From a virus (lineage: Duplodnaviria > Heunggongvirae > Uroviricota > Caudoviricetes): a stretch of DNA of 64,000 bases. The position numbers were made by a program, and so were the translations under genes. This document shows, piece by piece, positions 25,555-64,000 of the stretch (its first letter is position 1; each line of letters starts with the position of its first letter). The notes beneath the pieces were generated by a model that searched no databases, was not told where the DNA came from, and was given only the letters and a program-made list of their open reading frames with translations. The DNA is taken from the IMG/VR virus record IMGVR_UViG_2541047860_000002, one strand, 5' to 3'.

Positions 25555-25630
25555 TGGTGGCCCCTACCGGACTTGAACCGGTGACCGTGCGATTATGAGT
25601 CGCCAGCTCTAACCACTGAGCTAAAGGGCC
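25555..25630 (-). tRNA. tRNA-Ile2-like (anticodon CAT; could be read as Met)
   Basis: 76-nt cloverleaf with CCA end; near-identical to the E. coli ileX-type sequence as recalled. Confidence 0.8.
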
Positions 25631-25784
25631 AGATTACTGTTAATTCCGCTTACGCTTTTTGCCAGGACCGCGTAAGGCTTTTGCTGCTTGCTCGACCCCA
25701 TATGCAACCACCAGCAGAAATAAAAATGTCCACCAAGGGTTCTTGTCGGCAAACGTCCAAAATTCCATCATGTTATCTATTTGG

Positions 25785-26612
25785 TTATTTCACCGGAACA
25801 AACGGAACAGCGGTATTACTGGTCATATACTGCGGTAGCGTTCCGTTCCATTTGTTGATCGCTTCCAACTCCATAACGCCGGGGTTCTGGCGCAGAGCCT
25901 CACCGCGTAAACGAATGGCATCAGCTTCAGCCTGGGCTTTTGTGCGAATGGCATCGGCCTGTCCAGCAGCTTCTGCGCGCAGCATGTTGGCTTCTGCTTC
26001 GCGTTGCTTGACTTCCTGCTCGCGTTGCAGAGTTTTCTGGTTCGCCGTGACTTTGGCATTAATGCTGTCGATAACGGTTGGCGGGTACTCCGGCTTGCCC
26101 ACATATGAGAGGCTCATTACCTGAATACCGATGGGCGTCATTTCTTCCTGAATGTCTTTAAGGGCTGCATCAAGCAATTCAGATTTGCCACCGTCGATAA
26201 ATTTGTCGGTGGTCATTTTGCTGGCTAACCGGTTCAGAGCATCTGCAACCTTCTGGCGTAGATCGGTATCAGTAATATCATCTACACCTTTGCGATAGGT
26301 CTGAAATACCGTTGTGACTTTTGCTGGATCAACCTTGTAGGCTACGCCGATGTGGTAACCAATGGTTGTTCCGTCGCTCATCTGGAAGCTGAACGGCTCA
26401 TCGTATGTCTTCATTTGCTTAAAGGTCGGGAAGATATAAACTTCAGTATTCAAGCCTGTCCAGTAGCGACCAACGCCAACTACTTCACCGATACCTTTAT
26501 CATCCCCCAGCTTATTTACTTTGATCCCTACGTTACCTGGCTCTACCCGATCGCATCCGGTCAGACATAAAGAACCAAAAATAATCGCTGCACTAATCAA
26601 CGTTTTTTTCAT
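25785..26612 (-). CDS. SPFH/band-7 domain lipoprotein
   Basis: 275 aa; lipobox LCLTGC after signal peptide; prohibitin-like core and C-terminal coiled coil. Confidence 0.7.
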   Translation of the reverse strand: MKKTLISAAIIFGSLCLTGCDRVEPGNVGIKVNKLGDDKGIGEVVGVGRYWTGLNTEVYIFPTFKQMKTYDEPFSFQMSDGTTIGYHIGVAYKVDPAKVTTVFQTYRKGVDDITDTDLRQKVADALNRLASKMTTDKFIDGGKSELLDAALKDIQEEMTPIGIQVMSLSYVGKPEYPPTVIDSINAKVTANQKTLQREQEVKQREAEANMLRAEAAGQADAIRTKAQAEADAIRLRGEALRQNPGVMELEAINKWNGTLPQYMTSNTAVPFVPVK

Positions 26613-26829
26613 TAATCAATTTCCTGGTTTTTTCACGAAAAAAGACTACTGCAAAAGCCGGGTAAATGAGCGCGAGAAGGACTCCCAACAATACAAGTAT
26701 TGTGCTGTCAGATGAGATCATATTTGGCAAAAGCCAAACATACAGAACCAGTGACACAATCAAACAGAGGACGACATAAATATATAACCGCACCCATAGC
26801 GTTCGACATTTGTTCGGATTGTTCTGCAT
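26593..26829 (-). CDS. small membrane protein
   Basis: 78 aa with two hydrophobic helices; overlaps the lipoprotein gene start. Confidence 0.4.
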   Translation of the reverse strand: MQNNPNKCRTLWVRLYIYVVLCLIVSLVLYVWLLPNMISSDSTILVLLGVLLALIYPAFAVVFFREKTRKLINEKNVD

Positions 26830-27092
26830 CCTCTCACTCCATTATTTACCGAATAAAAAAGCTGCGGTGCCTGGTGCCTCCAGGTGACGTTAACCAGTTA
26901 ACAATTAACGCCGGGATGTTTGACTTAACCACTAAGGAGGATTGTTTTAACTGTTCCGCGTGCGCTTAGCCGCATTCACCGCAATGGTAAGAGCACTTGG
27001 CTGGCTGGGCGGCGATGACGCCTGTACGCATTTGGTGATCCGGTTCTGCTTCCGGCATTCGCTTAATTAGCCAAATACTCTTAACGTTGCAC

Positions 27093-27179
27093 TGGCGGAG
27101 AGTAATGGAATCGAACCATCATCGCTTGCGCAATGGGACGGTTTTCAAGACCGCTTGAGCACCATGCTCCCTACTCTCC
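27093..27179 (-). tRNA. tRNA-Ser-like (anticodon TGA), type II
   Basis: 87 nt; 7-bp acceptor stem, CTTGAAA anticodon loop, long variable arm, CCA end; fold checked by eye only. Confidence 0.55.
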
Positions 27180-27581
27180 AGTGATTGTGATGGTCGGTGC
27201 TGAACTCCGACACAGGGTTGTAGCAAGCCCCGCAAAGCGCGCACTACTGTAGTTGCGGCACATCAGCCTGTGCATTCACCACAATGTTGAGAACACTGGT
27301 TGTCACGCTGCAACGCAACATTTATTCATAGATTGGGATATGACCCCGTTACGCCAGTGTTCTCAACGTTGTGGTGCCGGTTACGGTTCCGGCCAGGCCT
27401 CTTCCTCAACGGGGTGTTCTCCATACGGACTACCGTTTATTGGTCGTTCCTGCGGTTTATGTTGTGAAGCCAGATGCTTATCTTCTGGTTGCTTCAAAGA
27501 GCTGCACTTCATCACAACGGTAAGAGCACTCGATGCATTTAAGCCAAGCCCCATAAGGGAGAATGCCCTTACCTGTTGTGT

Positions 27582-27657
27582 TGGTGCCGGTTAACGGACT
27601 CGAACCGCTGACATCCTGCTTACAAGGCAGGCGCTCTACCAACTGAGCTAAACCGGC
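27582..27657 (-). tRNA. tRNA-Thr (anticodon TGT)
   Basis: 76 nt, canonical D and T arms, CCA end. Confidence 0.8.
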
Positions 27658-27661
27658 AATT

Positions 27662-27748
27662 TGGTGGGGAGTGATGGAGTCGAACCACCCGAGTCGCAAT
27701 GACAGTAGATTTACAGTCTACCCCGCTACCCCTACGGACTAACTCCCC
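27662..27748 (-). tRNA. tRNA-Tyr (anticodon GTA), type II
   Basis: 87 nt with long variable arm, CTGTAAA anticodon loop, CCA end. Confidence 0.7.
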
Positions 27749-27753
27749 TAAAT

Positions 27754-27830
27754 TGGCGATGGTGGGTGGATTCGAACCACCGACCGACAGCTTAGAAGGC
27801 TGCTGCTCTATCCTACTGAGCTACACCATC
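27754..27830 (-). tRNA. tRNA-Arg (anticodon TCT)
   Basis: 77 nt, CTTCTAA anticodon loop, GGTTCGAATCC T-arm, CCA end. Confidence 0.8.
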
Positions 27831-50506: not shown

Positions 50507-51067
50507 ATGCTTATTGGATACATTCGCGTATCAACTAATGACCAAAACACCGCTTTACAACGAAACGCCCTTGAAAGCGCAGGATGTGAGCTAATTTTTG
50601 AGGATAAGGCGAGCGGCAAAAAGGCTGAACGCCCAGGGTTAAAAAAGGTTCTCCGTATGCTTTCCAGAGGTGACACCCTAGTCGTATGGAAGTTAGATCG
50701 TCTTGGGCGCAGCATGCGTCACTTAGTTGTGCTGGTGGAAGAGCTGCGTGACAGAGGCATTAACTTCCGGAGTCTCACTGACTCCATCGACACCAGTACA
50801 CCAATGGGGCGCTTTTTCTTTCACGTAATGGGGGCGCTGGCAGAAATGGAACGTGAGCTTATCGTTGAACGTACACGCGCTGGACTTGATGCAGCTCGCG
50901 CAGAAGGTCGTATAGGTGGGCGTCGGCCTAAATACCAAGAAGAAACATGGCAGCAAATGCGGCGATTGCTCGAGAAGGGCATCCCCCGTAAGCAGGTTGC
51001 AATCATCTATGATGTGGCTGTTTCCACGCTTTATAAGAAGTTTCCGGCGTCATCATTTCAATCCTAA
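50507..51067 (+). CDS. serine DNA invertase (Cin/Gin/Hin/Pin family), copy 1
   Basis: 186 aa; N-terminal MLIGYIRVSTNDQ catalytic-serine motif and C-terminal HTH; 3' end runs into the left cix-like site. Confidence 0.9.
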   Translation: MLIGYIRVSTNDQNTALQRNALESAGCELIFEDKASGKKAERPGLKKVLRMLSRGDTLVVWKLDRLGRSMRHLVVLVEELRDRGINFRSLTDSIDTSTPMGRFFFHVMGALAEMERELIVERTRAGLDAARAEGRIGGRRPKYQEETWQQMRRLLEKGIPRKQVAIIYDVAVSTLYKKFPASSFQS

Positions 51068-51084
51068 ACCTTGGTTTAAGAGAA
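51059..51084. other. cix/gix-like inversion crossover site (left)
   Basis: CAATCCTAAACC-TT-GGTTTAAGAGAA, 12-2-12 imperfect inverted repeat. Confidence 0.55.
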
Positions 51085-51114
51085 CTCGGTACCAGTGGTG
51101 AAAAGATCCCCCTG

Positions 51115-52650
51115 TTGAGCACGGCTAACACATGGAGTGCGCGCCAGACTTTCAACGGCGGGATCACCGGGGCGCTGACAGGGAACGCCGATACCGCGAC
51201 GAAATTGAAAACAGCCAGAAACATTAATGGCGTCAGGTTCGATGGTTCGGCTGACATTAATATCAATACTCTGGTATCACGCGGTCGAGTAACTGCTCTG
51301 GCGTCGAATGCGCAGGGGACATCCGGGATTCAGCTGTATGAGGCATACAACAATGGCTACCCTTCCCCCTATGGCAATGTGCTTCACCTTAAAGGTGCCA
51401 CCGCTGCTGGCGAAGGTGAGTTATTCATTGGCTGGAGTGGCACGAGCGGTGACCATGCGCCCGTACATATCCGTTCGCGGCGGGATACTGATTCTGCCAA
51501 CTGGTCTGAATGGGCGCAGGTCTATACGTCAAAAGATTCCGTTCCCGGCGTTAATACCAAAGGGAATCAGGACACCTCTGGTAATGCGGCTACAGCGACC
51601 AAATTGCAGACAGCACGTACTATTAACGGTGTCTCGTTTGATGGTTCTAAAAACATTGAGCTAACAGCGGAAGATTTAAATCTTGAGCAAACCGTAGAAT
51701 TAGCCGCTGGATCATTGCAGAAAAACCAGAACGGCGCAGATATTCCAAACAAAGATAAATTTACGCAAACAATAGGTGCTTGCCGCTCTTTTCATGGTGC
51801 TATTAGCACAGGTGCAGGAAACTGGACGACGGCACAATTGATTGAATGGCTGGATTCTCAAGGGGCATTCAATCACCCATACTGGATGTGCAAATGTTCA
51901 TGGTCATACGGCAATAATAAAATTATTACCGATACTGGCTGTGGAACTATTCATCTTGCAGGTTGCGTTATTGAGGTTATGGGTAATAAAGGTGCCATGA
52001 CTATCCGTGTAACCACCCCGAGCACTTCCAGAGGTGGCGGAACTACTAATGCACAATTTACTTATATAAACCATGGCGCAGATTACGCACCAGGCTGGCG
52101 GCGTGACTACAGTACCAAAAATCAGCAGCCTGCATTTGCTTTAGGGCAGACAGGAAGCACTGTTGGAAATGACAAAGCTGTTGGATGGAACTCAATTAGT
52201 GGCGTTTATAATGCGACTATTGGTGGAGCATCAACATTGATTCTTCACTTTAATATGAATGCGGGGAGTTGCCCTGCTGTACAGTTCCGTGTGAATTACA
52301 GGAACGGTGGTATTTTTTATCGTTCAGCGCGTGATGGTTACGGATTCGAAGCTGACTGGTCAGAATTTTACACCACAACACGCAAGCCATCAGCAGGAGA
52401 TGTTGGTGCATATACCAAAGCGGAGGCGGACTCCCGTTATGTACGTGATATCCGACTTGGTGGCGCATCATCATACAAACCAGCAAATAATGGCACAACA
52501 TGGACACATCAGGCTCCATCTGGTTGCGCATATACCGGAATAATTGTTCAGGATACAGGCTCAAACTCTGCCGATAATATTGGTGGTGTTTATTACAGAC
52601 CAATTCAAAAAAATATTAATGGCACATGGTATAACGTATCGAGTATTTGA
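51115..52650 (+). CDS. tail fibre variable C-terminal segment (Sv-like), no constant part attached
   Basis: 511 aa from a TTG; frame is open back through the cix site to a stop at about 51034 with no ATG. Confidence 0.65.
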   Translation: MSTANTWSARQTFNGGITGALTGNADTATKLKTARNINGVRFDGSADININTLVSRGRVTALASNAQGTSGIQLYEAYNNGYPSPYGNVLHLKGATAAGEGELFIGWSGTSGDHAPVHIRSRRDTDSANWSEWAQVYTSKDSVPGVNTKGNQDTSGNAATATKLQTARTINGVSFDGSKNIELTAEDLNLEQTVELAAGSLQKNQNGADIPNKDKFTQTIGACRSFHGAISTGAGNWTTAQLIEWLDSQGAFNHPYWMCKCSWSYGNNKIITDTGCGTIHLAGCVIEVMGNKGAMTIRVTTPSTSRGGGTTNAQFTYINHGADYAPGWRRDYSTKNQQPAFALGQTGSTVGNDKAVGWNSISGVYNATIGGASTLILHFNMNAGSCPAVQFRVNYRNGGIFYRSARDGYGFEADWSEFYTTTRKPSAGDVGAYTKAEADSRYVRDIRLGGASSYKPANNGTTWTHQAPSGCAYTGIIVQDTGSNSADNIGGVYYRPIQKNINGTWYNVSSI

Positions 52651-53186
52651 TTATGATGCATTTAAAAAACATAAAGCCAGGCAATCCAAAAACCGAAGAG
52701 CAATATCTTTTAACTAAAAACTCAGGCGTCGTCTGGTTATGGACCGAAGATGGTAAGAACTGGTATGAGGAACAAAAGAACTTTCAGGAAGACACCATAA
52801 AGATTGCATATGATGAAAATAATGTTATATGCGACGTGCAAAAGGATGTGACTGCAATTTGCCCGGAGGGAAAAAGTGTCGTTGAGGTTCCTGATATTAC
52901 AGCAAATCGCCGGGCTGATATTTCGGGTAAATGGATGTTCAAAGATGGCGTAGTGATAAAGCGAACTTATACCGAGGAAGAGCAGAGGCAACAAGCGGAA
53001 AATGAAAAGCAAAGCCTGCTACAGCTCGTCAGGGATAAAACACAGCTATGGGACTCACAGTTACGGCTGGGTATCATTTCCGACGAGAATAAACAAAAAT
53101 TAACCGAGTGGATGCTCTATGCGCAGAAGGTCGAATCCACAGACACCTCCAGCCTGCCAGTAACATTTCCCGAACAACCAGAATGA
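52647..53186 (+). CDS. tail fibre assembly protein
   Basis: 179 aa; paralogue of the convergent ORF 53215-53742. Confidence 0.75.
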   Translation: MIMMHLKNIKPGNPKTEEQYLLTKNSGVVWLWTEDGKNWYEEQKNFQEDTIKIAYDENNVICDVQKDVTAICPEGKSVVEVPDITANRRADISGKWMFKDGVVIKRTYTEEEQRQQAENEKQSLLQLVRDKTQLWDSQLRLGIISDENKQKLTEWMLYAQKVESTDTSSLPVTFPEQPE

Positions 53187-53214
53187 GAGAAGGCCCGATA
53201 TCGGGCCTTAATTT

Positions 53215-53742
53215 TTATTCAGGCTTTTGTGGCCATTCAGGATTTGCCGTATCCACACGGCTGACCAGAACACTGTAGCGTTCCCATGACTCCAGTCGTG
53301 CGCGTTCCTCATCCGTCGCCATATTCAGCCTGACAGCGCGTTCCAGTGGCTGAATAACGCTTTCTGCTTCGGAAAGTAACGCGGCCTTTTGTGATTCGGC
53401 CTGTTGTTGCTGTTCATCTGCCGTATAAATCCGTTTAACCACAGCTCCGTCCTTAAACATCCACTTCCCTGAATCATCGGCACGACGATTGGCTGTTATG
53501 TCGGGAACCTCAACGACGCTAAAACCTTCAGGGTTAAGCGTGGAGGCATCTTTGGTGATGGCGACAATAATATTATTTTCATCGTAAACAATCTTTATGG
53601 TGTCTGGCTGAAAGTTTTTCACTTCCTCATACCAGTTTTTTTCGTCCTCAGAGTAAAGCCAGATGACTCCGTGCTTCTTTGTTAACTCATACTGATCCAG
53701 TGTTTTAGCATTACCCGCTTTTATGTTCTTTAAGTGCATCAT
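53215..53742 (-). CDS. tail fibre assembly protein (alternative)
   Basis: 175 aa, mirror-image partner of 52647-53186. Confidence 0.75.
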
Positions 53743-53743
53743 A

Positions 53744-54754
53744 TTAAACGCTCGCTACATTATACCAGGTGCCATTTATATACTTTTGAACGGGTCTGTA
53801 ATAAACGCCCGCTATATTATCGGCAGAGTTGGACCCTGTATCCTGAACATTAATACCAGACAATACATGACCTGACGGGCACTGGAAATTCCATGTTTGC
53901 CAGTTGTTTACTCCATAATATTGCTGTGAACCAAGTCGAACATCTTTCACATAACGGGAATCAAAGTTACCGTAATCCGAGGGATTAACACGCCCTGTAA
54001 TATTTATGGTTTTATTACTTTGAATGCTGCCGGAGACAAAGCGCATAACATGGACGTTATTAGCATAAACGTCCAGATTACCGTCGCCATTTTGTTTAAA
54101 GCCCGTGTCATTATCACCCAAAACAATCGAGTTACCGCCAAGAGCACTGGATGTTCCGATACCCAATGCACCATTCAATTGACCGCCAGATAATGACAAC
54201 GCCCCAACCTCAGCAGCAGTCGGTTTAATGTGCGAACTGTAAATTACATATACAGTTCCATCTGTCAGGCCTGTTGGTTTATTCGCTGTATAAGTTGGTG
54301 ATGTATGAATTTGTACAGTTGCATCCTTTGTATAATCCCACTGGATATTAACACCTGTGGCGTAATTACCTATTTTTACATAAATGTCATAGGTATCACC
54401 GGATGTATTCACCCATGCAAAATTAGTAAATCCAACCGAGGTCCGTCGCCATAATGCACCAGTAAGACCTTTTGGATTTCCATTTCCCGCACGAAGAACA
54501 AGTTCAGATATACCAGCCTGCATAGGGGAGTTAACATTATATCCAGCACCACCAATCAGACTTATGTAAACCACGGAACTGGCTTGTGGCATTGTTACAG
54601 TTGCCAGTTTGAACCATCCAGCACCACCACTAAAAGACATGGTTGTTGAATTTGTTGTGCCGATATTACGCAGGAATAGTTTTTTATCGGGAATATCTGC
54701 GCCGTTCTGGTTTTTCTGTAATGCGCCAGAAGCCTGATTTACCGTTTCCTGCAA
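53744..54754 (-). CDS. tail fibre variable C-terminal segment (alternative), no constant part attached
   Basis: 336 aa from a TTG inside the right cix site; a stop lies 3 codons upstream; shares the [12 protein letters not shown] block with the other variable segment. Confidence 0.65.
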
Positions 54755-54771
54755 ACCGAGGTTTTAGATAA
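54746..54771. other. cix/gix-like inversion crossover site (right)
   Basis: TTCCTGCAAACC-GA-GGTTTTAGATAA, close to the Mu gix sequence as recalled. Confidence 0.7.
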
Positions 54772-54825
54772 TGGCCGTTTCTGACCTGCATGGCATGATT
54801 TACGCTTTTGGACGGGAGATTCAGC

Positions 54826-55413
54826 GTGCTGATTGGCTATGTAAGGGTATCAACAAATGACCAGAATACAGACCTGCAACGAAACGCTCTTGTTTGTGCA
54901 GGATGTGAACAAATATTTGAAGATAAATTAAGCGGGACAAAGACAGACCGACCGGGATTAAAACGCGCTTTAAAGCGCCTTCAAAAAGGTGACACGCTGG
55001 TTGTCTGGAAACTGGATCGCCTCGGGCGAAGCATGAAACATCTGATTTCTCTCGTCGGGGAACTACGGGAGCGAGGGATTAATTTTCGCAGTCTGACCGA
55101 CAGCATAGATACATCTTCTCCAATGGGACGTTTTTTCTTCCACGTGATGGGTGCCCTGGCTGAAATGGAACGTGAATTAATTGTTGAACGTACACTGGCC
55201 GGACTGGCAGCAGCGCGCGCACGGGGGCGCACAGGCGGACGTCGCCCGAAGCTGACAAAAGAACAGCATGAGCAAATAGCAAGGCTGATTAAAAACGGTC
55301 ACGACAGAAAACAACTGGCAATAATTTACGGCATTGGTACATCGACGATTTATCGTTACCACCCCGCAGGAGAATCAAGCGGAACAATAGAGAAGAGTCA
55401 GAAAACAAAATAA
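54826..55413 (+). CDS. serine DNA invertase (Pin/Gin-like), copy 2
   Basis: Probable GTG start giving (M)LIGYVRVSTNDQ; catalytic-serine and HTH regions conserved; the track ORF starts at an upstream TTG (54808). Confidence 0.9.
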   Translation: MLIGYVRVSTNDQNTDLQRNALVCAGCEQIFEDKLSGTKTDRPGLKRALKRLQKGDTLVVWKLDRLGRSMKHLISLVGELRERGINFRSLTDSIDTSSPMGRFFFHVMGALAEMERELIVERTLAGLAAARARGRTGGRRPKLTKEQHEQIARLIKNGHDRKQLAIIYGIGTSTIYRYHPAGESSGTIEKSQKTK

Positions 55414-55441
55414 CCGCTAATCTGACCATTAGCGGTTTTTG
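55412..55441. terminator. bidirectional rho-independent terminator
   Basis: AACCGCTAAT-CTGACC-ATTAGCGGTT hairpin plus T-run between convergent genes. Confidence 0.65.
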
Positions 55442-55448
55442 TGTTAAA

Positions 55449-55943
55449 TCAGAACAGCCCTTTAACTGAACTGGCCGCGCTGTTAAGAGATGATGTCACC
55501 TTATCTTTGAAGCCGGACAGCATATCGCTGAACGATGAGGATTGCAGGCGCTCCCGCAAATCCTCATCACAGCGTTCAAGGGTCAGTGAAAATTCTATCT
55601 TTTTCGCCTTACCGTAGCGATCAAACTCGGAACGGGTCGTATTCGTTCCGGTCAGGACATACATGCCGTAAATCTGCCCGACGCCATCAATCAAAGGCCA
55701 GGGTCGTCCTGTATACGCCTGCGTGGTCAGCAGCGACAGCGACACTTCGCCACCTGTAATTTCAGGATAAAGCACACCAGAAAGAACGATGCGATCATCA
55801 CCTGCACCGATATACTGCCAGCTTGCTGAACGGTTAACGCGTTCATTTTTCACATGCCGCCAGCTTTTGTTTTGCTGTAACTGCTGATGCGGCAGCGTGC
55901 GCAGCTCAAAAACAAACATGCCGTAGATCATCATCATGGCCAT
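55449..55943 (-). CDS. P2 gpU-like tail protein
   Basis: 164 aa with the WQY.GAGDD ... LSG.LYPE.TGG block I associate with P2 gpU. Confidence 0.75.
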   Translation of the reverse strand: MAMMMIYGMFVFELRTLPHQQLQQNKSWRHVKNERVNRSASWQYIGAGDDRIVLSGVLYPEITGGEVSLSLLTTQAYTGRPWPLIDGVGQIYGMYVLTGTNTTRSEFDRYGKAKKIEFSLTLERCDEDLRERLQSSSFSDMLSGFKDKVTSSLNSAASSVKGLF

Positions 55944-55949
55944 GACTCC

Positions 55950-58757
55950 TCAATCTTTATCGTAAAAACTGCCACGCCCGGCACGGGCGCGCCGTTCCAT
56001 TTCTGCCCTGACCATTTCACCGACCAGTTTCGCCAGTTCGCGGGGATTCTGTGTAACAACGTTATGCAGATGAACATGAATTTCACCGCCAAATCCGGAG
56101 GCAACAGGCTCCCGGTTACGGGAAGTTGCAGGAACTGATGCCACTGGCGATCGTATGGCCTCCGCCACCGGGCGGGAGCTGGCCGCAACAACAGGGACCA
56201 GCGCCGGAGGCAGCGGAGCCGGAACCACGGGTGTGATATTAATTGCGGGGGCAGGCTTACTGACCTGCGCAATCTTCCGCTCCTGCCACTCCCCACGAAC
56301 AGCAAGTGCGCGGGGCAGGTTCTTAAAGACAATATCGCCGGGGCCAATGCGTTTTTTCGTCTCATCAACCAGCTTACCTGTGTTATCAGCAATTTTGCTG
56401 AGTCTGCGTAGCGTCCCGGTATTGCTGTCTGTGAGCGGTTTGTTGTCTTTGGGTTTATCACCTCCGGTGCCATTGCCATTTTCCACAGGCTTCGGCGGAT
56501 TGATTTTCGCCAGGTCCCCCTGAAGCAAGGCAACCTTGTCCTGAAGAATGGCCGCACGCTGTGCGTCTTCGATTTTCTTGCGCGCCCTTTCCGCTTCATC
56601 CGGAAGGACGCCAAGTTTTTCAAGTATCCACGCCAGCGTATCCAGTAGCATTTTTGCAGGTGTCAGAACAAGTTGTAACGCACCGCCAAGAACGTTACCG
56701 AATATCTCGCCAGCACTGGTACATTTATCCAGAGTTTCCTTGCTGGATTCCATCGGTGACAGCAGCGATTTAAACCAGTTAAACACCTGGCTGATCCCGC
56801 TTCCGATTGCGTCAAAAACAGGACCAAACCGTTCAAAGGTTTCGCGCAACGGGGTCAGCCTTTCCATAATCCCGCTGAACACCCCGGCAAAAAATGCCCT
56901 GATGGGATCCCAGTATTTCCAGATAAGAACGGCAGCTCCGGCAAGCGCAGCCACGATAAGACCAACCGGACTGAACAACGCCCCGATGGCGCCTCCCAGT
57001 AAAGAAACGGAACCCGTCACCATTCCCCACAGCGCAGGCAACGCCCTGACGACATTCATTGACCGGGTAAGAATGTCAAAACCAAGACGCAGGGTGGCCA
57101 GCTTCCCGTAAAGCACCCCAATAACCAGCGACAACGAGCCAATCGTTGCAGTCATTGCCAACAACGCACCGCCTGCTATCAGTAGCTGGCGCGTCAGTAC
57201 CGGATGGGCCTGCGCCAGCGAGGTGATTTTTTCAAGCACCCGCGTGAGCCACTGCGTGACAGAACGCAGCGGACCGTCAACCAGATCACTGATGCGAATA
57301 CGAAGACCTTCCCATGCGCTGTCGAGATTTTTCAGGTCCCCATCAAGATTATCGGCCATTACTTTTGCAACGCGATCGGACTCTCCCCTTGCCCCCTGCA
57401 ATTCTCTGGTCAGTTTTTGCAGCTCTCCTGAACCAGCCGCCGCAACAAGCGTCTGCAAACCAACGAACGCCTCTTCTCCGGCGATGTCCTTGAAGAAGGA
57501 AACCTGGTCCACCTGTCCGTATTTTTGTGTCGCCTTATAGAGATCAAGCAGCACATCCTCCATCGGGCGCATTTTGCCTCTGGCGTCAGCAACTGACACC
57601 CCCAGCTCTTTCAGTGCATCAGCCGCAGCTTTTGGCGGTGATGCAAGGCGGGACAGACTTGCGCGCATGGCCGTACCAGCATCGCTTCCACGAAGACCAT
57701 TATTGGCAAGCATCCCGGCCATAGCTGCCGCTTCTTCAAGACTGATACCAAGTTTTGCGGCAACCGGACCGGTATACTTCATGGTTTCGCCCAGCGCGCG
57801 TAAATCAGTATTGGTCCGGGTGAATGCCGCTGTCAGCGTATCGCCAACCCGGTCCATTTGATCGGCTGTCAGGTTGAACTGTGTGAGGATATTGGAGCCT
57901 ATATCAGCCGTCTCGCCGAGTTCGACGCCACCTGCCAGCGCCATATTAAGAACACCGGGCAATGCGGCCTGAATGGCCTGCGGAGTAAAACCAGCCATTG
58001 CCAGAAAGCTCTGCCCACTGGCGGCATCACTCGCAGTAAACTGTGTTTCAGAGCCAAGTTTTAACGCCTGCTCACGCAGCGCCTTAAACTGCGGGCTGTT
58101 TTTGTCGATTCGCGTCAGCGCCTGAACGCGGGACATCTCTTTGCCGAACCCGATCGCGGGCTGCAAAAAACGCCCGGCAGCATAGCCGCCCGCCGCTGCC
58201 GCACCAATTGCCAGCGCACCACCTGTTTTCAGTTTTCCCGCGGTTTCCTGCGCGCGCGAATACCGCTCACGCGCCCGCGTTACACGCGCAAGCGCCTGCC
58301 GTTCGCGTTCAAGCTGGTTGTTGTACTGTTCGGTGCGTCTGATGGCCTGCTGGATGGTGTTATCGCTGCCTGTCAGGGAAATGCCGTGGCGTTTCAGTTC
58401 TCCGCCAATCTCCCGCATTTTCTGAATTTCCCGTGTGCGCGATTCATTCAGGCGTTCAAGCCGGGTGCTTAACTGCTGCATCAGCTTTTGTTGTTTTTCG
58501 CTGAGCACTGTACCCGTGCGTTGTAACTGATTAAGGGCGTTAAGCTGGCGTCGTGCTTTCACGATGCCCGCATCCGCTTTACTGACAGCGTCACGGGCGC
58601 GCTCAAATGAACGCGCCTGACGCTCGAGATTTTTGATCGCCCCCTGCGTTCGCTGGATGGAGTCACCAAACTGCCCCATCAGGCGGCGGGCGTTTTCGGC
58701 AGGCCGGGTCAGCCTGTCAACGGCGCTGAAAGCGACCCGGATATCAAGAGTCTTCAT
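55950..58757 (-). CDS. tail tape measure protein
   Basis: 935 aa, coiled-coil N-terminus, Gly/Ala-rich hydrophobic core; directly after the E/E-prime chaperone genes. Confidence 0.85.
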   Translation of the reverse strand: MKTLDIRVAFSAVDRLTRPAENARRLMGQFGDSIQRTQGAIKNLERQARSFERARDAVSKADAGIVKARRQLNALNQLQRTGTVLSEKQQKLMQQLSTRLERLNESRTREIQKMREIGGELKRHGISLTGSDNTIQQAIRRTEQYNNQLERERQALARVTRARERYSRAQETAGKLKTGGALAIGAAAAGGYAAGRFLQPAIGFGKEMSRVQALTRIDKNSPQFKALREQALKLGSETQFTASDAASGQSFLAMAGFTPQAIQAALPGVLNMALAGGVELGETADIGSNILTQFNLTADQMDRVGDTLTAAFTRTNTDLRALGETMKYTGPVAAKLGISLEEAAAMAGMLANNGLRGSDAGTAMRASLSRLASPPKAAADALKELGVSVADARGKMRPMEDVLLDLYKATQKYGQVDQVSFFKDIAGEEAFVGLQTLVAAAGSGELQKLTRELQGARGESDRVAKVMADNLDGDLKNLDSAWEGLRIRISDLVDGPLRSVTQWLTRVLEKITSLAQAHPVLTRQLLIAGGALLAMTATIGSLSLVIGVLYGKLATLRLGFDILTRSMNVVRALPALWGMVTGSVSLLGGAIGALFSPVGLIVAALAGAAVLIWKYWDPIRAFFAGVFSGIMERLTPLRETFERFGPVFDAIGSGISQVFNWFKSLLSPMESSKETLDKCTSAGEIFGNVLGGALQLVLTPAKMLLDTLAWILEKLGVLPDEAERARKKIEDAQRAAILQDKVALLQGDLAKINPPKPVENGNGTGGDKPKDNKPLTDSNTGTLRRLSKIADNTGKLVDETKKRIGPGDIVFKNLPRALAVRGEWQERKIAQVSKPAPAINITPVVPAPLPPALVPVVAASSRPVAEAIRSPVASVPATSRNREPVASGFGGEIHVHLHNVVTQNPRELAKLVGEMVRAEMERRARAGRGSFYDKD

Positions 58758-59282
58758 TATCTACATTCCCGCTGCGAAGTGCCGCCCGCTCACGCCAGCT
58801 AACCACTTCGCCGGGCGTCATCATGAAGATTTCGGCGGGCGACCAGTTAAAAATGGCGGCGATATCTGCCACCAGATCTTCGATGTGCTCAAAGCACACC
58901 AGGGTGATTACGCTGCCGTCTCCTGCACGCTCTTCGCGCCAGAGTCTGGCTCGCTCATAAAATTTACAGCCACAGCGCACAACTGAATAAAATCGCGTGA
59001 CGACATTTTTTTAATCATCACTTCATCCAGTCGTGGCGAGGTCACGCGAGGCAACAGCGTGAACATGGTATCCGCTTTCAGATTCAGCACATCAGACAGC
59101 GACAGACCACGCAGGGATCCAGCCTGTTCAATAGCCCCGGTGATCTCCACATACGTGATTTTTTCGCCACCACGCTCAATTGGTCGGGTCAGTTTTACGC
59201 CACGTTCGACAGCCATATCCTCACCTGCCGTCACATCATCCGCCACGGTGTTATTCCGGGTTTCAGTATCGATGTCTTTCAT
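58744..59282 (-). CDS. tail assembly chaperone E plus E-prime fusion via -1 programmed frameshift
   Basis: gpE ORF is 58908-59282 (124 aa); the -1 frame is open from the A7 tract at 59006-59012 to 58744 and overlaps the tape measure start. Confidence 0.65.
59006..59012 (-). other. slippery heptanucleotide (AAAAAAA on mRNA) for the E/E-prime -1 frameshift
   Basis: Covers Lys91-Lys92 of gpE; shifting back one nt continues into the E-prime frame. Confidence 0.6.
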
Positions 59283-59337
59283 CAGTTGTCTCCTTTTCAG
59301 TCAGAGGCGACGCACTGCGCCGCCTGCATATTACTTA

Positions 59338-59850
59338 TCAGCCAAGCCCGAGCGCGGAACGGATGCGATCGGGCACAATGTCCTTGCCGTCCTTCCGGTA
59401 AATGAAGTTCAGCAGGTCAATCTCCCACAACGGGCGATCGTTAACACTCAGCTTGTAGTAGGTGTTTTTAATGGCGTAAGTGTGTGATGTGGCTTCGCCC
59501 TGTTTGGCTTCCCCCATATCAATTTCCGTCACACGTCCGCGCATTTCGACTTCATACAGGTCGCTTTCTGCATCGGTGTAGTATTCACCCGCAAAACGCA
59601 GCAGCGTGCCGTCAATCGTGCCGCCATACTTAAGGAACAGCTCACGAACTGCGCCCCCCATGACAAAGCTCGCATCAAGCGCGGAGTCGTCCAGACCGAG
59701 ATCAATACTTACCGCACCCATCATGCCACCACCCCGGTAGCTGTCGGTTTTGCGCGTCAGCTTAGGCAGAGTGACGGACGTCACCTTACCCACTTCGTTT
59801 TCACCATCCACAAACAGCGTAAAAAAGCGAAGATGTTTTGGTACAGCCAT
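59338..59850 (-). CDS. tail tube protein (P2 FII-like)
   Basis: 170 aa directly downstream of and coupled to the sheath gene. Confidence 0.8.
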   Translation of the reverse strand: MAVPKHLRFFTLFVDGENEVGKVTSVTLPKLTRKTDSYRGGGMMGAVSIDLGLDDSALDASFVMGGAVRELFLKYGGTIDGTLLRFAGEYYTDAESDLYEVEMRGRVTEIDMGEAKQGEATSHTYAIKNTYYKLSVNDRPLWEIDLLNFIYRKDGKDIVPDRIRSALGLG

Positions 59851-61034
59851 CAGGCACCTCCCAGCACCGCAAATGCGGGACCAAAGAATTCATCAGTAAA
59901 CGACTGGTAAAGCTCCATGTCTTCCAGCGGGGGAACAGGCGTATATTTGTAGCGAATACGCACGCGCCCCTGACGTAAATTCGTGGTGCCGTTATCCACC
60001 ACGTCATACCAGCACGACGCCCCAATCAGTTTCCCGGCAGTAACCAGTGAATCCAGTTTTGCCCTGATGGCACTGATAACATCTTTCACGTTCGCAGGCG
60101 TCAGTGGACTGTCGATGGTTTCAAACTGCGCTTCCGCAATTGAATCAGCCAGCACCTGTGCGGTTCGGGTATACACCTCAAAGATGTAGGCGTTCGTTTC
60201 CGGTGTGCGGTTGCCCCAGAAGCGGAACCCATTGCGACGAATAATGGTCGTGATTTCTTTGTTGTTGAGGCTGTTGGCATCGCTGTCTTCGGCCTGCAAC
60301 GACCAGAACACATGCCTCGACATCCCCAGCACATTTTTAACCGGAACGTTGGACAGTGATTTGTGCCAGCCCTGCTCATGGTCAATGTACGCACGAAGGC
60401 CGCACGCATAGGCAGGCGCGGGGAACGTTTCGTTTTTGCCACTTTTCGGGTTGTAGGCAATGAAGTCCGGCCATAAGAGCATCACCTCACGTTCGTTGAA
60501 TTTCTGGCGGTAGGTAATCGCCTCAGCCATCGTGTTACAGCCGTAACATGAGGCATACACAAACGCGCGCAGTTTACCTGCAATCACGCACAGGGATTTT
60601 GTTACAGCCTCCGTGTCCAGCTCCGGCGCGGCCAGAATACGCGGACGGTATCCGATGCTTTCATCCTGCTCTGCAACAAGCAGCGCATACATCCCCGTAT
60701 AGCTGCCGTCAGATTCAGAGCCACCGATAACCAGTTGATCCTGCGTCTTTCCGTCTTCTTCTTTGTGTTCAGCCACGCGAACGACGATCACCTTTGTGCT
60801 CACCTGGTCTGCGATGGCCTTAAGCGCACGATAAAGCGTCCCCGTTGTCCCGCATTTTCCCAGCACGTCATTGACGCGGGTCAGCAGTGTGGGCTTGTTC
60901 AGCGGGAACAGCTCTGCGTCCGCATCATCCGCCGTTGCCACGATACCGATAACACTGGAGTCAACATCATTAATCGCTGTTACCAGGTCGGTACTTTCCG
61001 TGACACGGGCACCATGAAAACGAGTTTCACTCAT
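59850..61034 (-). CDS. tail sheath protein (P2 FI-like)
   Basis: 394 aa, contractile-sheath size; first gene of the FI-FII-E-T-U block. Confidence 0.85.
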   Translation of the reverse strand: MSETRFHGARVTESTDLVTAINDVDSSVIGIVATADDADAELFPLNKPTLLTRVNDVLGKCGTTGTLYRALKAIADQVSTKVIVVRVAEHKEEDGKTQDQLVIGGSESDGSYTGMYALLVAEQDESIGYRPRILAAPELDTEAVTKSLCVIAGKLRAFVYASCYGCNTMAEAITYRQKFNEREVMLLWPDFIAYNPKSGKNETFPAPAYACGLRAYIDHEQGWHKSLSNVPVKNVLGMSRHVFWSLQAEDSDANSLNNKEITTIIRRNGFRFWGNRTPETNAYIFEVYTRTAQVLADSIAEAQFETIDSPLTPANVKDVISAIRAKLDSLVTAGKLIGASCWYDVVDNGTTNLRQGRVRIRYKYTPVPPLEDMELYQSFTDEFFGPAFAVLGGA

Positions 61035-61191
61035 AGCTTCAGCCCCTTGTATCCGTTAAATGATTCGGCAACAATCATCACCCACCACGCGCGTAATCTC
61101 ACCCCTGCGCCGTTCTCCCGCCACGGCGACAACAAAAAGCAGTAACCCCCTCCGCACGCACATGCGACCATGCCGCACAGGGAGGGAACAG

Positions 61192-62301
61192 ATGACCGAC
61201 ACCACCATGCAATTGCTCAGTCAGGGCACAGACCCCGTGAAAATGCCGGATTTTGATATTCTCGCGGAGGGTAAAACGTTGTCAGGCGTGGCAGAGCGCC
61301 TGATGAGCCTGTCACTGACCGACAACCGGGGATTTGAAGCGGACCAGCTCACCATCACGCTGGATGATGCGGATGGTCAGTTGCAGCTACCGCCACGGGG
61401 CGCGCGCCTGACGGTTCTCATTGGCTGGAAAGGAGAACCGCTGACAGAAAAAGGCACTTACATTGTTGATGAAATCGCTCACGAAGGACCGCCGGACAGG
61501 CTGACTGTTTCAGCCAGAAGCGCAGATTTTCGGGATGAATTTAACGTTAAACGTGAGGTGTCCTGGCATGATGTGACCGTTGAGCGTGTGGTATCCGCCA
61601 TCGCTCATCGGTATGGTCTGAAACCGCAAATCAGCGAAATGCTGATGGATATCGAAATCGACCACGCCGACCAGACCGAAGAAAGCGACATGTCCTTCCT
61701 TACGCGCATGGCGGAAATGCTGGGCGCAATCACCACGGTAAAAAGCGGTAATCTGTTATTCATCATGCCCGGCGGTGGCGTGAACGCGCAGGGCCAGCCG
61801 TTGCCATCGTTTGCCATCACACGCAGCAGCGGCGATCGCCATCAGTTCCGCATTGCTGACCGCGAGGCGTATACGGGTGTACGCGCCTACTGGCTTGATC
61901 TTAATTACGGGAAAAAGAAAAAAGTCAGCGTGAAACGCCGCAAACCGCCAAAACCCAAAAAGGAGAAAAGCAGCAGCCGCGAAGGTGACTATATGGAAGG
62001 TGCGGAAGGCAACGTATTTGTGTTACGCAAGACTTATCAGAACGAGCAGGCAGCAAGACGCGCAGCGGCGGCAAAATGGCAGCAGCTACAACGCGGAGCC
62101 GCATCATTTTCCATCACGCTGGCACGTGGACGCGCAGAACTCTACCCCGAAATGCATGGCACGGTAACAGGATTTAAAAGCGAGATTGATAATCAGGACT
62201 GGATTATTGCAAAAGCCGAGCACACCATTGATAACAGCGGCTTTACCACGCAGCTTGAGCTTGAGGCAAAAATCCCGGAATGGATAGCGGAAACAAAGTG
62301 A
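61192..62301 (+). CDS. P2 gpD-like tail protein
   Basis: Start at the internal ATG of track ORF 61060-62301; contains LTDNRGFEADQL characteristic of gpD; followed by ogr. Confidence 0.75.
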   Translation: MTDTTMQLLSQGTDPVKMPDFDILAEGKTLSGVAERLMSLSLTDNRGFEADQLTITLDDADGQLQLPPRGARLTVLIGWKGEPLTEKGTYIVDEIAHEGPPDRLTVSARSADFRDEFNVKREVSWHDVTVERVVSAIAHRYGLKPQISEMLMDIEIDHADQTEESDMSFLTRMAEMLGAITTVKSGNLLFIMPGGGVNAQGQPLPSFAITRSSGDRHQFRIADREAYTGVRAYWLDLNYGKKKKVSVKRRKPPKPKKEKSSSREGDYMEGAEGNVFVLRKTYQNEQAARRAAAAKWQQLQRGAASFSITLARGRAELYPEMHGTVTGFKSEIDNQDWIIAKAEHTIDNSGFTTQLELEAKIPEWIAETK

Positions 62302-62343
62302 GCAACTTAGAATAGCGGCAGCACCACGTTAAGGGAGGTCGCT

Positions 62344-62604
62344 ATGTTCCGTTGTCCGCTTTGTGGCGCATCTGCCCGTATCCGCACCAGTCGTCCGGAA
62401 AATGATTCAAACACCGTGCGGCAAAAGTATTACCAGTGTAACAACCTGGAATGCGGCGTATGCTTCTCAACACTGGAAGCTTTCCATAAATTCACATCGA
62501 AACACGCCTCCGGCGTTCACTCATCAGAAGGTATCCCGTGGCATGAGCTGCCAGCTTCACACAGGGGAAACAATCAGATGAGTTTGCCTTTACCTCAGAA
62601 TTAA
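62344..62604 (+). CDS. ogr: Ogr/Delta-family zinc-finger late transcription activator
   Basis: N-terminal MFRCPLCG ... YYQCNNLECG four-Cys pattern as in P2 Ogr. Confidence 0.75.
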   Translation: MFRCPLCGASARIRTSRPENDSNTVRQKYYQCNNLECGVCFSTLEAFHKFTSKHASGVHSSEGIPWHELPASHRGNNQMSLPLPQN

Positions 62605-62793
62605 CAGGCAGAATTGCCGGAGTAACAAAAAAGCGATAGATTACGTGCGGGTGCCTTTCGGCTGATGGTCGGAGGGAATACCCGAAGGCCAGATGTGGAA
62701 AGGCCCCGGAAAACATTTCTGTTTAACCGAGGCCCTAACCCGTCAACCTAGCAAGTGATAGGTTAGCGCCTCTCCAACAAAGGAGCAAGCGCT

Positions 62794-62934
62794 ATGTCGC
62801 AAAAATCGCTTACGGCCATCACGTTCTGCGTGACGGTAATCCTCATCATCTGGATGCTGCACGGTTCGCTGTGTGAAATACGGATGAGCTTCTGGGGAGC
62901 GGAGTTTGCGGCGTTCTTACAGTGTAAGCAGTAA
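62794..62934 (+). CDS. Hok/Gef-family type I toxin-like peptide
   Basis: 46-aa ORF below the track cutoff with one membrane helix and the LCEIR hallmark; upstream leader carries a small overlapping ORF. Confidence 0.6.
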   Translation: MSQKSLTAITFCVTVILIIWMLHGSLCEIRMSFWGAEFAAFLQCKQ

Positions 62935-63123
62935 GGAAACCGCGACGGGGAGGCAACTCCCCGTCAATCGGTTGCTAGGGTAAGGCCGATAAGGCACCCT
63001 ATCTCATAGGCATGAATAACAACCCCGCAGCGTAAAAACTGCGGGGTTTCTTTTTGGAACTCTCACTAGCTAGTGAGCCGTTAACTGCACATAATGCTCG
63101 CACAACAAATCAGTTAAAAGAGA

Positions 63124-63519
63124 TTACTCAGCATTCTCCTGCTTCCATTGCCGGATCATTTCATCGGTAACATCACTTTCATAACATACCACGTCATACC
63201 CGCCAGTACGGCTATATGCACTGCGTCCACCACATCTACTACCATTCCTTGCATGATTATACGGACACGCACAATTGCCTGGATAAGATTCAATGGATTC
63301 TTTAATTATTTCTTTCTTGATCTGAGCATCTGACTTTCCTGTTGCTGCATACCCACTAAAAGATACCAAACAAAGGCAGATTGCCATTAATAAACCACAT
63401 CGCATACCGATACACTCTATTACTAACCAATCATAGCCCACATCATAAAATCGAGATGAGGAGTACAACACCTTTAACAAGAAGGTGCCATCACGATAAT
63501 ATGCCGTGCAATTCATCAA
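63124..63519 (-). CDS. small secreted Cys-rich protein
   Basis: Likely start at an internal Met giving a signal peptide and a ~70-aa mature part with 6 Cys. Confidence 0.4.
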   Translation of the reverse strand: MMNCTAYYRDGTFLLKVLYSSSRFYDVGYDWLVIECIGMRCGLLMAICLCLVSFSGYAATGKSDAQIKKEIIKESIESYPGNCACPYNHARNGSRCGGRSAYSRTGGYDVVCYESDVTDEMIRQWKQENAE

Positions 63520-63945
63520 AAAAAAGATCTATATCAAAGAGATAGAGTTATTATCAGTGCTGCAGACATCAGCATTCGAGGCAGCAGAAAGACAGTAAAT
63601 CTAACGAATTTGTCTTTTTCTCAGGATGTTGTCAGATTAAAAAAGATAGAGTAGCGCAGACACCTTTTGGTGGATGGTAGGAGGAAAAATGAAGTTGAGT
63701 GGGAAGATCCCAGAAAAAACTTTGGTTTAACCAAGGCCCTAGTTCAATATGCGAAATGCAGATGAGTTGCAAGAGAGTTTTGCTTCACCCTTAGAGTTTA
63801 AACAGACGTGTACTATTATTATTTCTGCATATCGCCACACCATCGCCACTTTACCGCCATTTAACAAAATACAAATACAAAAAAACCACCCGAAGGTGGT
63901 TTCACGACACTGCTTATTGCTTTGATTTTATTCTTATCTTTCCCA

Positions 63946-64000
63946 TGGTACCCGGAGCGGGACTTGAACCCGCACAGCGCGAACGCCGAGGGATTTTAAA
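63946..64000 (-). tRNA. tRNA-Leu (anticodon TAA), 3' portion only
   Basis: CCA end, acceptor, T-arm and anticodon region readable on the minus strand; truncated by the window end. Confidence 0.7.

What the first reader, a model, noticed from the sequence alone, without database searches (positions are those of the whole stretch)
50507..55413. Tail-fibre shufflon flanked by two invertase genes, with no constant tail-fibre gene and mismatched crossover cores
A 3.7 kb segment (two tail-fibre variable ends and two assembly genes in mirror orientation) lies between cix-like sites at 51059-51084 and 54746-54771. Both flanks are serine-invertase genes rather than a constant tail-fibre N-terminal gene, and both variable ORFs begin at TTG inside the sites with upstream stops, so neither can be fused to a constant region as drawn. 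The central dinucleotides differ (TT versus GA), which in Gin/Hin systems blocks productive inversion. This looks like a junction between two inversion systems, possibly locked, or using a remote constant region.
Basis: partly seen in the sequence, partly recalled or inferred. Interest (0 to 1): 0.65.

Follow-up and report, generated by a model that had tools for sequence, protein, structure and literature searches.

The report
Plasmid and prophage switches mis-joined
The "tail-fibre segment between two invertase genes" is two ordinary, well-known phage tail-fibre inversion switches, one on a P1-like plasmid and one on a P2-like chromosomal prophage, joined end to end in a draft scaffold through about 1.4 kb of identical sequence, most likely by the assembler.

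Summary
The described features are all present, but they do not form one system.

- **Left part.** Window 1 to about 52.9 kb is a P1/D6-like phage-plasmid. Its invertase is 98.9% identical to P1 Cin. Its crossover site is letter-identical to P1 cixL, and P1's 0.62-kb repeat follows it.
- **Right part.** Window 54,690-64,000 is the right arm of a P2-like prophage at tRNA-Leu, with a Gin-like invertase and a gix-like site.
- **Core mismatch.** Read in the same orientation, the core dinucleotides are AA and GA. Each is the native core of its own family. The true partner sites and the constant tail-fibre genes lie outside the window.
- **Source.** The window is the last 64 kb of a 99-kb draft scaffold, KE701072.1 of GCA_000459435.1.
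- **Duplication.** The right arm also sits in that assembly's 3.37-Mb chromosome scaffold, inside a complete prophage, with 1 mismatch in 9,311 bp.
- **Shared repeat.** Window 52,929-54,324 is 100% identical to the inverted chromosomal cassette.
- **Inversion.** The single mismatch is a half-site base that moves with the segment end. It shows the prophage segment inverting in the sequenced culture.
- **No precedent.** No finished E. coli genome, plasmid or phage record has this arrangement.

Best reading: an assembler path through a shared repeat (about 0.72). Main rival: a real plasmid-prophage cointegrate (about 0.2). Interest is low.

The parts
50507..51067 (+). cin: the P1-type serine DNA invertase of the phage-plasmid
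   Evidence: 186 aa. It is 98.9% identical to P1 Cin and 100% identical to the invertase of the D6-like plasmid pEP91B-2. Pfam Resolvase + HTH_7.
51059..51084 (.). cixL crossover site (core AA on the minus strand, TT on the plus strand)
   Evidence: Letter-identical to the annotated cixL of P1 and to the same site in pEP91B-2.
51085..51700 (+). Left copy of the P1-specific 0.62-kb inverted repeat of the C segment. Its partner copy is absent from the window.
   Evidence: 94.8% identical to the right repeat of P1 in inverted orientation. There is no second copy in the window.
51115..52650 (+). Sv' silent tail-fibre C-terminal cassette of the plasmid C segment
   Evidence: Collinear with pEP91B-2 and P1 up to about 52,420. 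The frame is open through cixL. This exact 511-aa product occurs only in this scaffold.
52653..53186 (+). U' tail-fibre assembly gene. The switch from plasmid-specific sequence to sequence shared with the chromosome falls inside it.
   Evidence: PF02413 Caudo_TAP. The exact 177-aa allele is common in Mu-like prophages, P1-like plasmids and other phage-plasmids. The last difference from the chromosomal copy is at 52,928.
52929..54324 (.). 1,396-bp stretch 100% identical to the inverted Sv-U-U' of the chromosomal P2-like prophage in the same assembly. This is the repeat through which the two elements are joined.
   Evidence: The comparison stops at 54,324 only because the chromosome scaffold has a 3,240-N gap there.
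53215..53742 (-). U tail-fibre assembly gene
   Evidence: The 175-aa product is identical to that in chromosome scaffold KE701069.1, and also occurs in P2-like and P1-like contexts elsewhere.
53744..54754 (-). Sv tail-fibre C-terminal cassette of the prophage, in its silent (invertase-proximal) position
   Evidence: 98.6% identical to the variable part of H in the SCU-111 prophage. 100% identical to the chromosome scaffold as far as it can be compared. A stop codon in the outer half-site closes the frame.
54746..54771 (.). gix-like crossover site of the P2-like prophage (core GA), in the flipped 'B' state
   Evidence: 22 of 24 non-core positions match Mu gix, and the site is identical to the TUM14668 prophage right site. 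The inner half-site base C at 54,752 belongs to the Sv end. The chromosome scaffold has T, which belongs to the Sv'c end, at the same junction. The independent Logan contig stops at 54,753.
54826..55413 (+). Gin/Pin-like serine invertase of the P2-like prophage
   Evidence: 195 aa. 100% identical to the SCU-111 prophage invertase and 85.6% to Mu Gin. Pfam Resolvase + HTH_7.
54690..64000 (.). Right arm of the P2-like prophage (invertase, gpU, tape measure, tube, sheath, D, ogr, hok, ending inside tRNA-Leu). It is duplicated in the assembly.
   Evidence: 1 mismatch in 9,311 bp against chromosome scaffold KE701069.1, and 100% identity over 9,154 bp to Logan contig SRR784825_237. The context in the chromosome scaffold is tRNA-Leu/pgsA/uvrC.

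Best explanation
The window shows two separate, conventional Din-family tail-fibre switches, not one.

**Switch 1.** This is the Cin/cix C segment of a roughly 90-kb P1/D6-like phage-plasmid. On the real circular plasmid it would run cin, cixL, 0.62-kb repeat, Sv', U', U, Sv, 0.62-kb repeat, cixR, Sc.

**Switch 2.** This is the Gin-like switch of a P2-like prophage at tRNA-Leu. It runs H-constant, left site, invertible cassette, right site, invertase.

**What they share.** The two cassettes share at least 1.4 kb of identical sequence (3' part of U', all of U, and Sv). The prophage cassette was present in both orientations in the sequenced culture.

**How the join arose (inferred).** The short-read scaffolder walked out of the plasmid's Sv'/U', through the shared repeat, and left by the prophage exit (right site, invertase, tail genes). 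It should have left by the plasmid exit (repeat, cixR, Sc). The same 9.3-kb prophage arm was therefore used twice in the assembly.

**What follows from this.**
- Both ends shown are the invertase-proximal, silent sides of their own switches, so no constant gene is seen.
- The cores differ because AA is the P1 core and GA is the Mu/P2-like core.

**Shown versus inferred.**
- Shown: the identity of each half, the duplication, the shared repeat, and prophage inversion.
- Inferred: that the join was made by the assembler and not in the cell.
For: **Source.** The window is positions 35,258-99,257 of draft scaffold KE701072.1 of GCA_000459435.1.

**Identity of the two halves.**
- Window 1 to about 52.4 kb is collinear with D6/P1-like plasmids.
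- Window 54,690-64,000 is a P2-like prophage arm found at tRNA-Leu/pgsA/uvrC in 1,102 complete genomes.

**Duplication within the assembly.**
- Chromosome scaffold KE701069.1 carries the whole prophage. Its arm differs from the window by 1 base in 9,311 and continues into pgsA and uvrC.
- The window's scaffold stops inside tRNA-Leu.

**Shared repeat.** Window 52,929-54,324 is identical to the inverted chromosomal cassette.

**Prophage inversion.**
- Three of the four possible inversion junctions are present in the assembly: H|Sv'c, Sv'c|invertase and Sv|invertase.
- The single mismatch (C/T at 54,752) is the inner half-site base that travels with the segment end.
- An independent Logan assembly contig ends exactly at that base.

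**Assembly trouble at this locus.** The chromosome scaffold has a 3,240-N gap inside this cassette.

**Sites.** Each site is native to its own system: P1 cixL/cixR have core AA, and Mu and P2-like prophages have core GA on both sides.

**No precedent for the arrangement.**
- No record covers 80% or more of the 5.1-kb region in one place. The searches covered 5,426 complete E. coli genomes, 72,556 plasmids and 50,697 phage records.
- An exact plasmid backbone protein occurs in 1,117 blocks of the collection, and no contig carrying it is longer than 200 kb. The family is therefore not seen integrated.

**Expected contig length and break point.**
- The P1-like length of the scaffold is 35,257 + about 54,690 = about 89.9 kb, one full plasmid (pEP91B-2 is 89,738 bp).
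- Draft P1-like contigs of 85-90 kb that end in a partial S gene are common.
Against: - No reads were available, so the join itself could not be tested.
- A de Bruijn graph looks the same for two separate replicons and for a cointegrate formed by crossover in the shared repeat.
- The first 35 kb of the scaffold could not be fetched. Its predicted start in the right 0.62-kb repeat, near cixR and Sc, is therefore unverified.
- The 100% identity between the plasmid and prophage cassettes could be real. That would make recombination in the cell easy.
Confidence: 0.72

Rival explanations
1. The structure is a real cointegrate. The P1-like plasmid integrated into the chromosomal P2-like prophage by RecA-dependent homologous recombination inside the shared 1.4-1.8-kb tail-fibre cassette. 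The window shows one of the two junctions. The other junction would have two constant genes facing each other and no invertase.
For: - At least 1,396 bp of perfect identity between the two cassettes gives ample substrate for recombination.
- The two segments are collinear, with gene strands +,+,-,- in both, so a single crossover gives exactly this arrangement.
- The scaffold has no N at the join.
Against: - The same assembly holds the intact prophage with the same arm, contiguous with its own cassette.
- The arm is duplicated, and in this scaffold it ends at the next repeat boundary instead of continuing into the chromosome.
- No finished genome shows such a junction.
- This plasmid family is never found on contigs longer than 200 kb.
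Confidence: 0.2
2. The two replicons were fused by site-specific recombination, with Cin or the Gin-like enzyme acting between a cix site and the prophage gix-like site.
For: From general knowledge (not tested here), Din-family invertases cross-complement, and Cin is reported to use secondary (quasi-cix) sites. The two half-site sets are similar.
Against: - Neither site is a hybrid. The left site is letter-identical to P1 cixL. The right site is the exact product of the prophage's own inversion.
- The P1-to-prophage transition lies inside the cassette, between 52,929 and 54,690, not at a site.
- The cores differ (AA versus GA).
Confidence: 0.03
3. It is a genuine single switch with two invertases and a remote or missing constant gene, in other words a locked or novel shufflon.
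For: Only the bare arrangement in the window.
Against: - There is no constant region in the 64 kb.
- Both cassettes are in the silent position.
- The cores are mismatched.
- Each half is fully explained as part of a standard element.
- The arrangement is absent from all finished records.
Confidence: 0.02

Closest known systems
Bacteriophage P1 Cin/cix C-segment switch (also in D6 and P7-like phage-plasmids)
   Same: - The left half matches P1: cin at 98.9% protein identity, an identical cixL, and the 0.62-kb repeat.
- Sv' and U' are in the silent orientation next to cin.
- The neighbours lydA/lydB/darA are as in P1.
   Different: The right 0.62-kb repeat, cixR and the constant S (Sc) gene are not adjacent here. 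Prophage sequence stands in their place in the scaffold.
Phage Mu Gin/gix G-segment switch and its homologue in P2-like E. coli prophages (also Pin of e14 and Hin of Salmonella)
   Same: - The right half has U(-), Sv(-), a gix-like site with core GA, and an invertase (+), in the same order as Mu U', S', gixR, gin.
- The invertase is 85.6% identical to Gin.
- Inversion is evident in the data.
   Different: - It sits in a P2-like prophage, not in Mu.
- The constant gene H and the left site are in another scaffold.
Min multiple-inversion system of plasmid p15B, and the R64 shufflon
   Same: Tail-fibre or pilus-tip cassettes are rearranged by site-specific recombination.
   Different: - Only two sites exist in 64 kb, not six or more.
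- The recombinases here are serine invertases. R64 uses the tyrosine recombinase Rci (general knowledge).
- There is no evidence of more than one invertible unit per element.

Membership tests
Din-family (Gin/Cin/Pin/Hin) invertase switch | Serine recombinase with a resolvase catalytic domain and a C-terminal HTH | tested here: met
   Both flanking genes carry PF00239 + PF02796. They are 98.9% identical to Cin and 85.6% to Gin, and both have the RVSTN(D/E)Q serine motif.
Din-family (Gin/Cin/Pin/Hin) invertase switch | Two 26-bp crossover sites in inverted orientation with identical core dinucleotides | tested here: not met
   - For the pair in the window the cores are AA and GA.
- The feature is met for each system with its own partner. 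The prophage left and right sites are both GA. P1 and pEP91B-2 cixL/cixR are both AA.
Din-family (Gin/Cin/Pin/Hin) invertase switch | A constant N-terminal tail-fibre gene abutting one site, so that inversion swaps the C-terminus | tested here: not met
   - tblastn with P1 Sc and with the P2-like H N-terminus finds nothing in the window.
- H is present next to the left site in chromosome scaffold KE701069.1.
Din-family (Gin/Cin/Pin/Hin) invertase switch | Both orientations occur in a population | tested here: met
   - Met for the prophage switch only. Junctions H|Sv'c, Sv'c|invertase and Sv|invertase coexist in the assembly, and the Logan contig breaks at the polymorphic half-site base.
- Not testable for the plasmid switch or for the cixL/gix pair.
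Din-family (Gin/Cin/Pin/Hin) invertase switch | Fis-dependent recombinational enhancer inside the 5' part of the invertase gene | not tested
   P1 annotates the enhancer 18-89 nt into cin. The corresponding window stretch was not analysed separately.
Shufflon (R64 type) or multiple-inversion Min system | Several (four or more) crossover sites delimiting multiple invertible cassettes | tested here: not met
   Only two AAACCNNGGTTT sites in 64 kb. A relaxed scan finds no further site scoring above 16 of 24.
P1/D6-like phage-plasmid | Collinear P1-type backbone (repL, pro, portal, darA, lydA/B, cin, pacA/B, tRNAs) | tested here: met
   Window 1-52,424 aligns with pEP91B-2 at 91-97% over most of its length. 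Pfam hits include RepL, DarA and LydB. Five tRNA genes are present.
P2-like (Peduovirus-type) prophage | P2-type tail genes gpU, T, E, FII, FI, D and ogr, at a tRNA attachment site | tested here: met
   Pfam hits are GpU, PhageMin_Tail, Phage_tube, Phage_sheath, GPD and Ogr_Delta. 97.7% identical to the SCU-111 prophage next to tRNA-Leu/pgsA.

The most novel reading that the evidence does not exclude
The join is real. A P1-like phage-plasmid recombined with a co-resident P2-like prophage inside their shared tail-fibre cassette. The result is a chromosomal cointegrate in which a roughly 93-kb stretch lies between the prophage's two gix-like sites.

A weaker version is also possible. In it, the perfect 1.4-kb identity records a very recent cassette exchange between the two elements in this strain.
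Probability: 0.2. Interest if true: 0.4.

Novelty: not a real feature. Interest (0 to 1): 0.12.

Why it matters
Mostly as a caution. Invertible tail-fibre cassettes are shared almost identically between unrelated co-resident phages, and they exist in two orientations within a culture. Short-read scaffolds can therefore stitch a plasmid to a chromosome at these points and create apparent "double-invertase" loci.

If the join were real, it would be a direct example of a phage-plasmid integrating through tail-fibre cassette homology. That would be a modest extension of the known horizontal exchange of tail-fibre genes among P1, Mu and P2.

Tried and rejected
**Reaching the first 35 kb of scaffold KE701072.1, to see whether it starts at the P1 repeat, cixR and Sc.**
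- A homologue search with the gp16-like protein returned only a non-identical cluster representative.
- A search with the S N-terminus gave 7,480 hits, and none came from a 99,257-bp contig.
- Look-up of the first window gene returned only other plasmids.

**Other dead ends.**
- Look-up of ogr was too common to find the source scaffolds.
- I considered a Cin- or Gin-mediated fusion at the sites. I rejected it because both sites are intact native sites and the transition lies inside the cassette.
- I considered a multi-site shufflon or Min-type system. I rejected it because only two sites exist.
- I looked for gix-like sites at the borders of the inverted FI-to-U tail block of the prophage and found none convincing, with a best score of 15 of 24.
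- Literature searches found background on the C segment but no report of this arrangement.


Full report
**1. What is in the window**

Two serine-invertase ORFs lie at 50507-51067 and 54808/54826-55413, both on the plus strand. They flank four genes:
- a tail-fibre C-terminal ORF at 51115-52650 (+);
- two Caudo_TAP assembly genes at 52653-53186 (+) and 53215-53742 (-);
- a second tail-fibre C-terminal ORF at 53744-54754 (-).

The motif AAACCNNGGTTT occurs exactly twice in the 64 kb, at the two reported sites. About 0.08 matches are expected by chance.

Read in the same orientation, the 26-bp sites are:
- TTCTCTTAAACC-AA-GGTTTAGGATTG at 51059-51084;
- TTCCTGCAAACC-GA-GGTTTTAGATAA at 54746-54771.

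The core mismatch is therefore real.

One detail needs correcting. The left ORF's TTG lies 31 nt inside the segment, not inside the site. The tail-fibre frame runs open through cixL. At the right site the outer half-site supplies a TAA stop. Both sites encode N-L-G-L in the fibre frame.

**2. The two halves belong to different elements**

The left invertase is 98.9% identical to P1 Cin and 100% identical to the invertase of the D6-like plasmid pEP91B-2. The right invertase is 100% identical to the invertase of a common P2-like E. coli prophage and 85.6% identical to Mu Gin.

The left site is letter-identical to the annotated cixL of P1. It is followed by P1's characteristic 0.62-kb repeat. The right site matches Mu gix at 22 of 24 non-core positions and is identical to the right site of the same prophage in strain TUM14668.

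In P1 and pEP91B-2 both cix sites have core AA. In Mu and the P2-like prophages both sites have core GA. Each site in the window therefore carries its own family's core.

Across the whole window:
- 1-52,424 is collinear with P1/D6-like phage-plasmids, with repL, portal, darA, lydB, a holin and five tRNAs.
- 54,690-64,000 is the right arm of a P2-like prophage, with invertase, gpU, tape measure, tube, sheath, D, ogr and hok. It ends inside tRNA-Leu.

The window contains no constant tail-fibre region and no second copy of the P1 repeat. In both P1 and Mu, the cassette next to the invertase gene is the silent one. The window shows the two invertase-proximal halves of two switches.

**3. Where the window comes from**

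The exact 511-aa Sv' product occurs in one contig only. That contig is KE701072.1, a 99,257-bp scaffold of draft assembly GCA_000459435.1. The window is its last 64 kb.

The same assembly has a 3.37-Mb chromosome scaffold, KE701069.1. It carries the entire P2-like prophage at tRNA-Leu/pgsA/uvrC, with baseplate genes, H, the cassette, the invertase, tail genes, D and ogr.

Three comparisons tie the window to that chromosomal prophage:
- Its arm differs from window 54,690-64,000 by one base in 9,311.
- Window 52,929-54,324 is 100% identical to the inverted chromosomal Sv-U-U'. The comparison stops only at a 3,240-N gap in the chromosome scaffold.
- An independent Logan assembly of run SRR784825 gives a 9,154-bp contig that is 100% identical to window 54,753-63,906.

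The right arm, including the second invertase gene, is therefore present twice in the assembly.

**4. The prophage switch is active, and that explains the single mismatch**

Alignment A1 shows the following.
- The chromosome scaffold's left contig joins the H side to the Sv'c end, whose inner half-site is CTGTAAACC.
- Its right contig joins the same Sv'c end to the invertase side.
- The window joins the other end, Sv, whose inner half-site is CTGCAAACC, to the invertase side.

One molecule cannot hold the first two junctions at once. Three of the four possible inversion junctions are therefore represented, which means both orientations were present in the sequenced DNA.

The only mismatch between the two copies of the arm is this C/T at 54,752. 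The Logan contig ends at 54,753, exactly where the graph must branch. So the window's right site is the normal flipped state of a working switch with matched GA cores. Its partner lies in the H gene, outside the window.

**5. Where the join lies**

The plasmid-specific sequence ends, and identity to the chromosomal cassette begins, at 52,929, inside U'.

The window's U' is nevertheless a common natural allele. It is found in Mu-like prophages, P1-like plasmids and other phage-plasmids. P1-like plasmids can also carry the identical U. The plasmid's own cassette may therefore be identical to the chromosomal one for the whole 1.4-1.8 kb.

The switch of element can then lie anywhere from 52,929 to about 54,690. 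At that point P1-type plasmids continue into the 0.62-kb repeat, and the window instead continues into the gix-like site.

Neither site is a hybrid, so a Cin- or Gin-mediated fusion at the sites is excluded.

**6. Artefact or real recombinant**

Several points favour an assembler path through the repeat.
- The arm is duplicated. In this scaffold it ends at the next repeat boundary (the tRNA-Leu attachment core). In the chromosome scaffold the same sequence runs on into pgsA and uvrC.
- The chromosome scaffold has a gap and mixed orientation states at this locus.
- The P1-like part of the scaffold is 35,257 + about 54,690 = about 89.9 kb, one full plasmid. pEP91B-2 is 89,738 bp.
- Draft P1-like contigs of 85-90 kb ending in a partial S gene are common.
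- No record among 5,426 complete E. coli genomes, 72,556 plasmids and 50,697 phage records covers 80% or more of the region in one place.
- An exact backbone protein of this plasmid occurs in 1,117 blocks of the collection, and no contig carrying it is longer than 200 kb.

A real cointegrate cannot be excluded without reads. It would form by a single homologous crossover in the shared cassette, would give exactly this junction, and would look the same in a de Bruijn graph.

My estimates are:

| Explanation | Probability |
|---|---|
| Assembly path through the shared repeat | about 0.72 |
| Real plasmid-prophage cointegrate | about 0.20 |
| Site-specific fusion at the sites | about 0.03 |
| Genuine two-invertase switch | about 0.02 |

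**7. Comparison with known systems, and verdict**

Both halves are textbook Din-family switches: P1 Cin/cix on the left, and Mu Gin/gix as found in P2-like prophages on the right.

The pair of sites in the window fails two defining features of such a switch, namely matching cores and an abutting constant gene. The prophage system meets both features with its own partner site. For the plasmid system they are met in the reference plasmids, since its own partner lies outside the window.

It is not a shufflon or a Min-type multiple-inversion system, because only two sites exist.

The locus is not a new or locked biological device. Interest is low. The practical lesson is that shared, actively inverting tail-fibre cassettes are a trap for short-read scaffolding.

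Noticed in passing
window 55449-61034 (also L001 12750-18325): In this P2-like prophage the tail block FI, FII, E, T, U lies on the opposite strand to H/G and to D/ogr, so it is inverted relative to the canonical P2 gene order. It sits between the invertase gene and gpD. The arrangement is conserved in 1,102 complete E. coli genomes. No gix-like site was found at its borders; the best score was 15 of 24.
   Followed up: partly
L011 4179-7418 (chromosome scaffold KE701069.1): The N gap in the prophage tail-fibre gene is 3,240 bp. Only about 0.3 kb should be missing if the cassette is like that of related prophages. The excess is close to one cassette length. It is probably a side-effect of read pairs coming from both orientations.
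   Followed up: partly
window 52929-54324: This stretch is perfectly identical to the chromosomal prophage cassette, and may equally be the plasmid's own (U', U, Sv). It could reflect recent cassette exchange between the plasmid and the prophage in this strain, or repeat collapse by the assembler.
   Followed up: partly
window 25555-27830: A cluster of five tRNA genes (Met, Ser, Thr, Tyr, Arg) lies in the plasmid part. The reference plasmid pEP91B-2 has a related but not identical set at the same place (Ile, Ser, Thr, Arg).
   Followed up: no
window 63876-64000: The Logan contig ends at 63,906 and the scaffold ends at 64,000, inside tRNA-Leu. This is consistent with the prophage attachment core being a repeat that stops both assemblers.
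   Followed up: no
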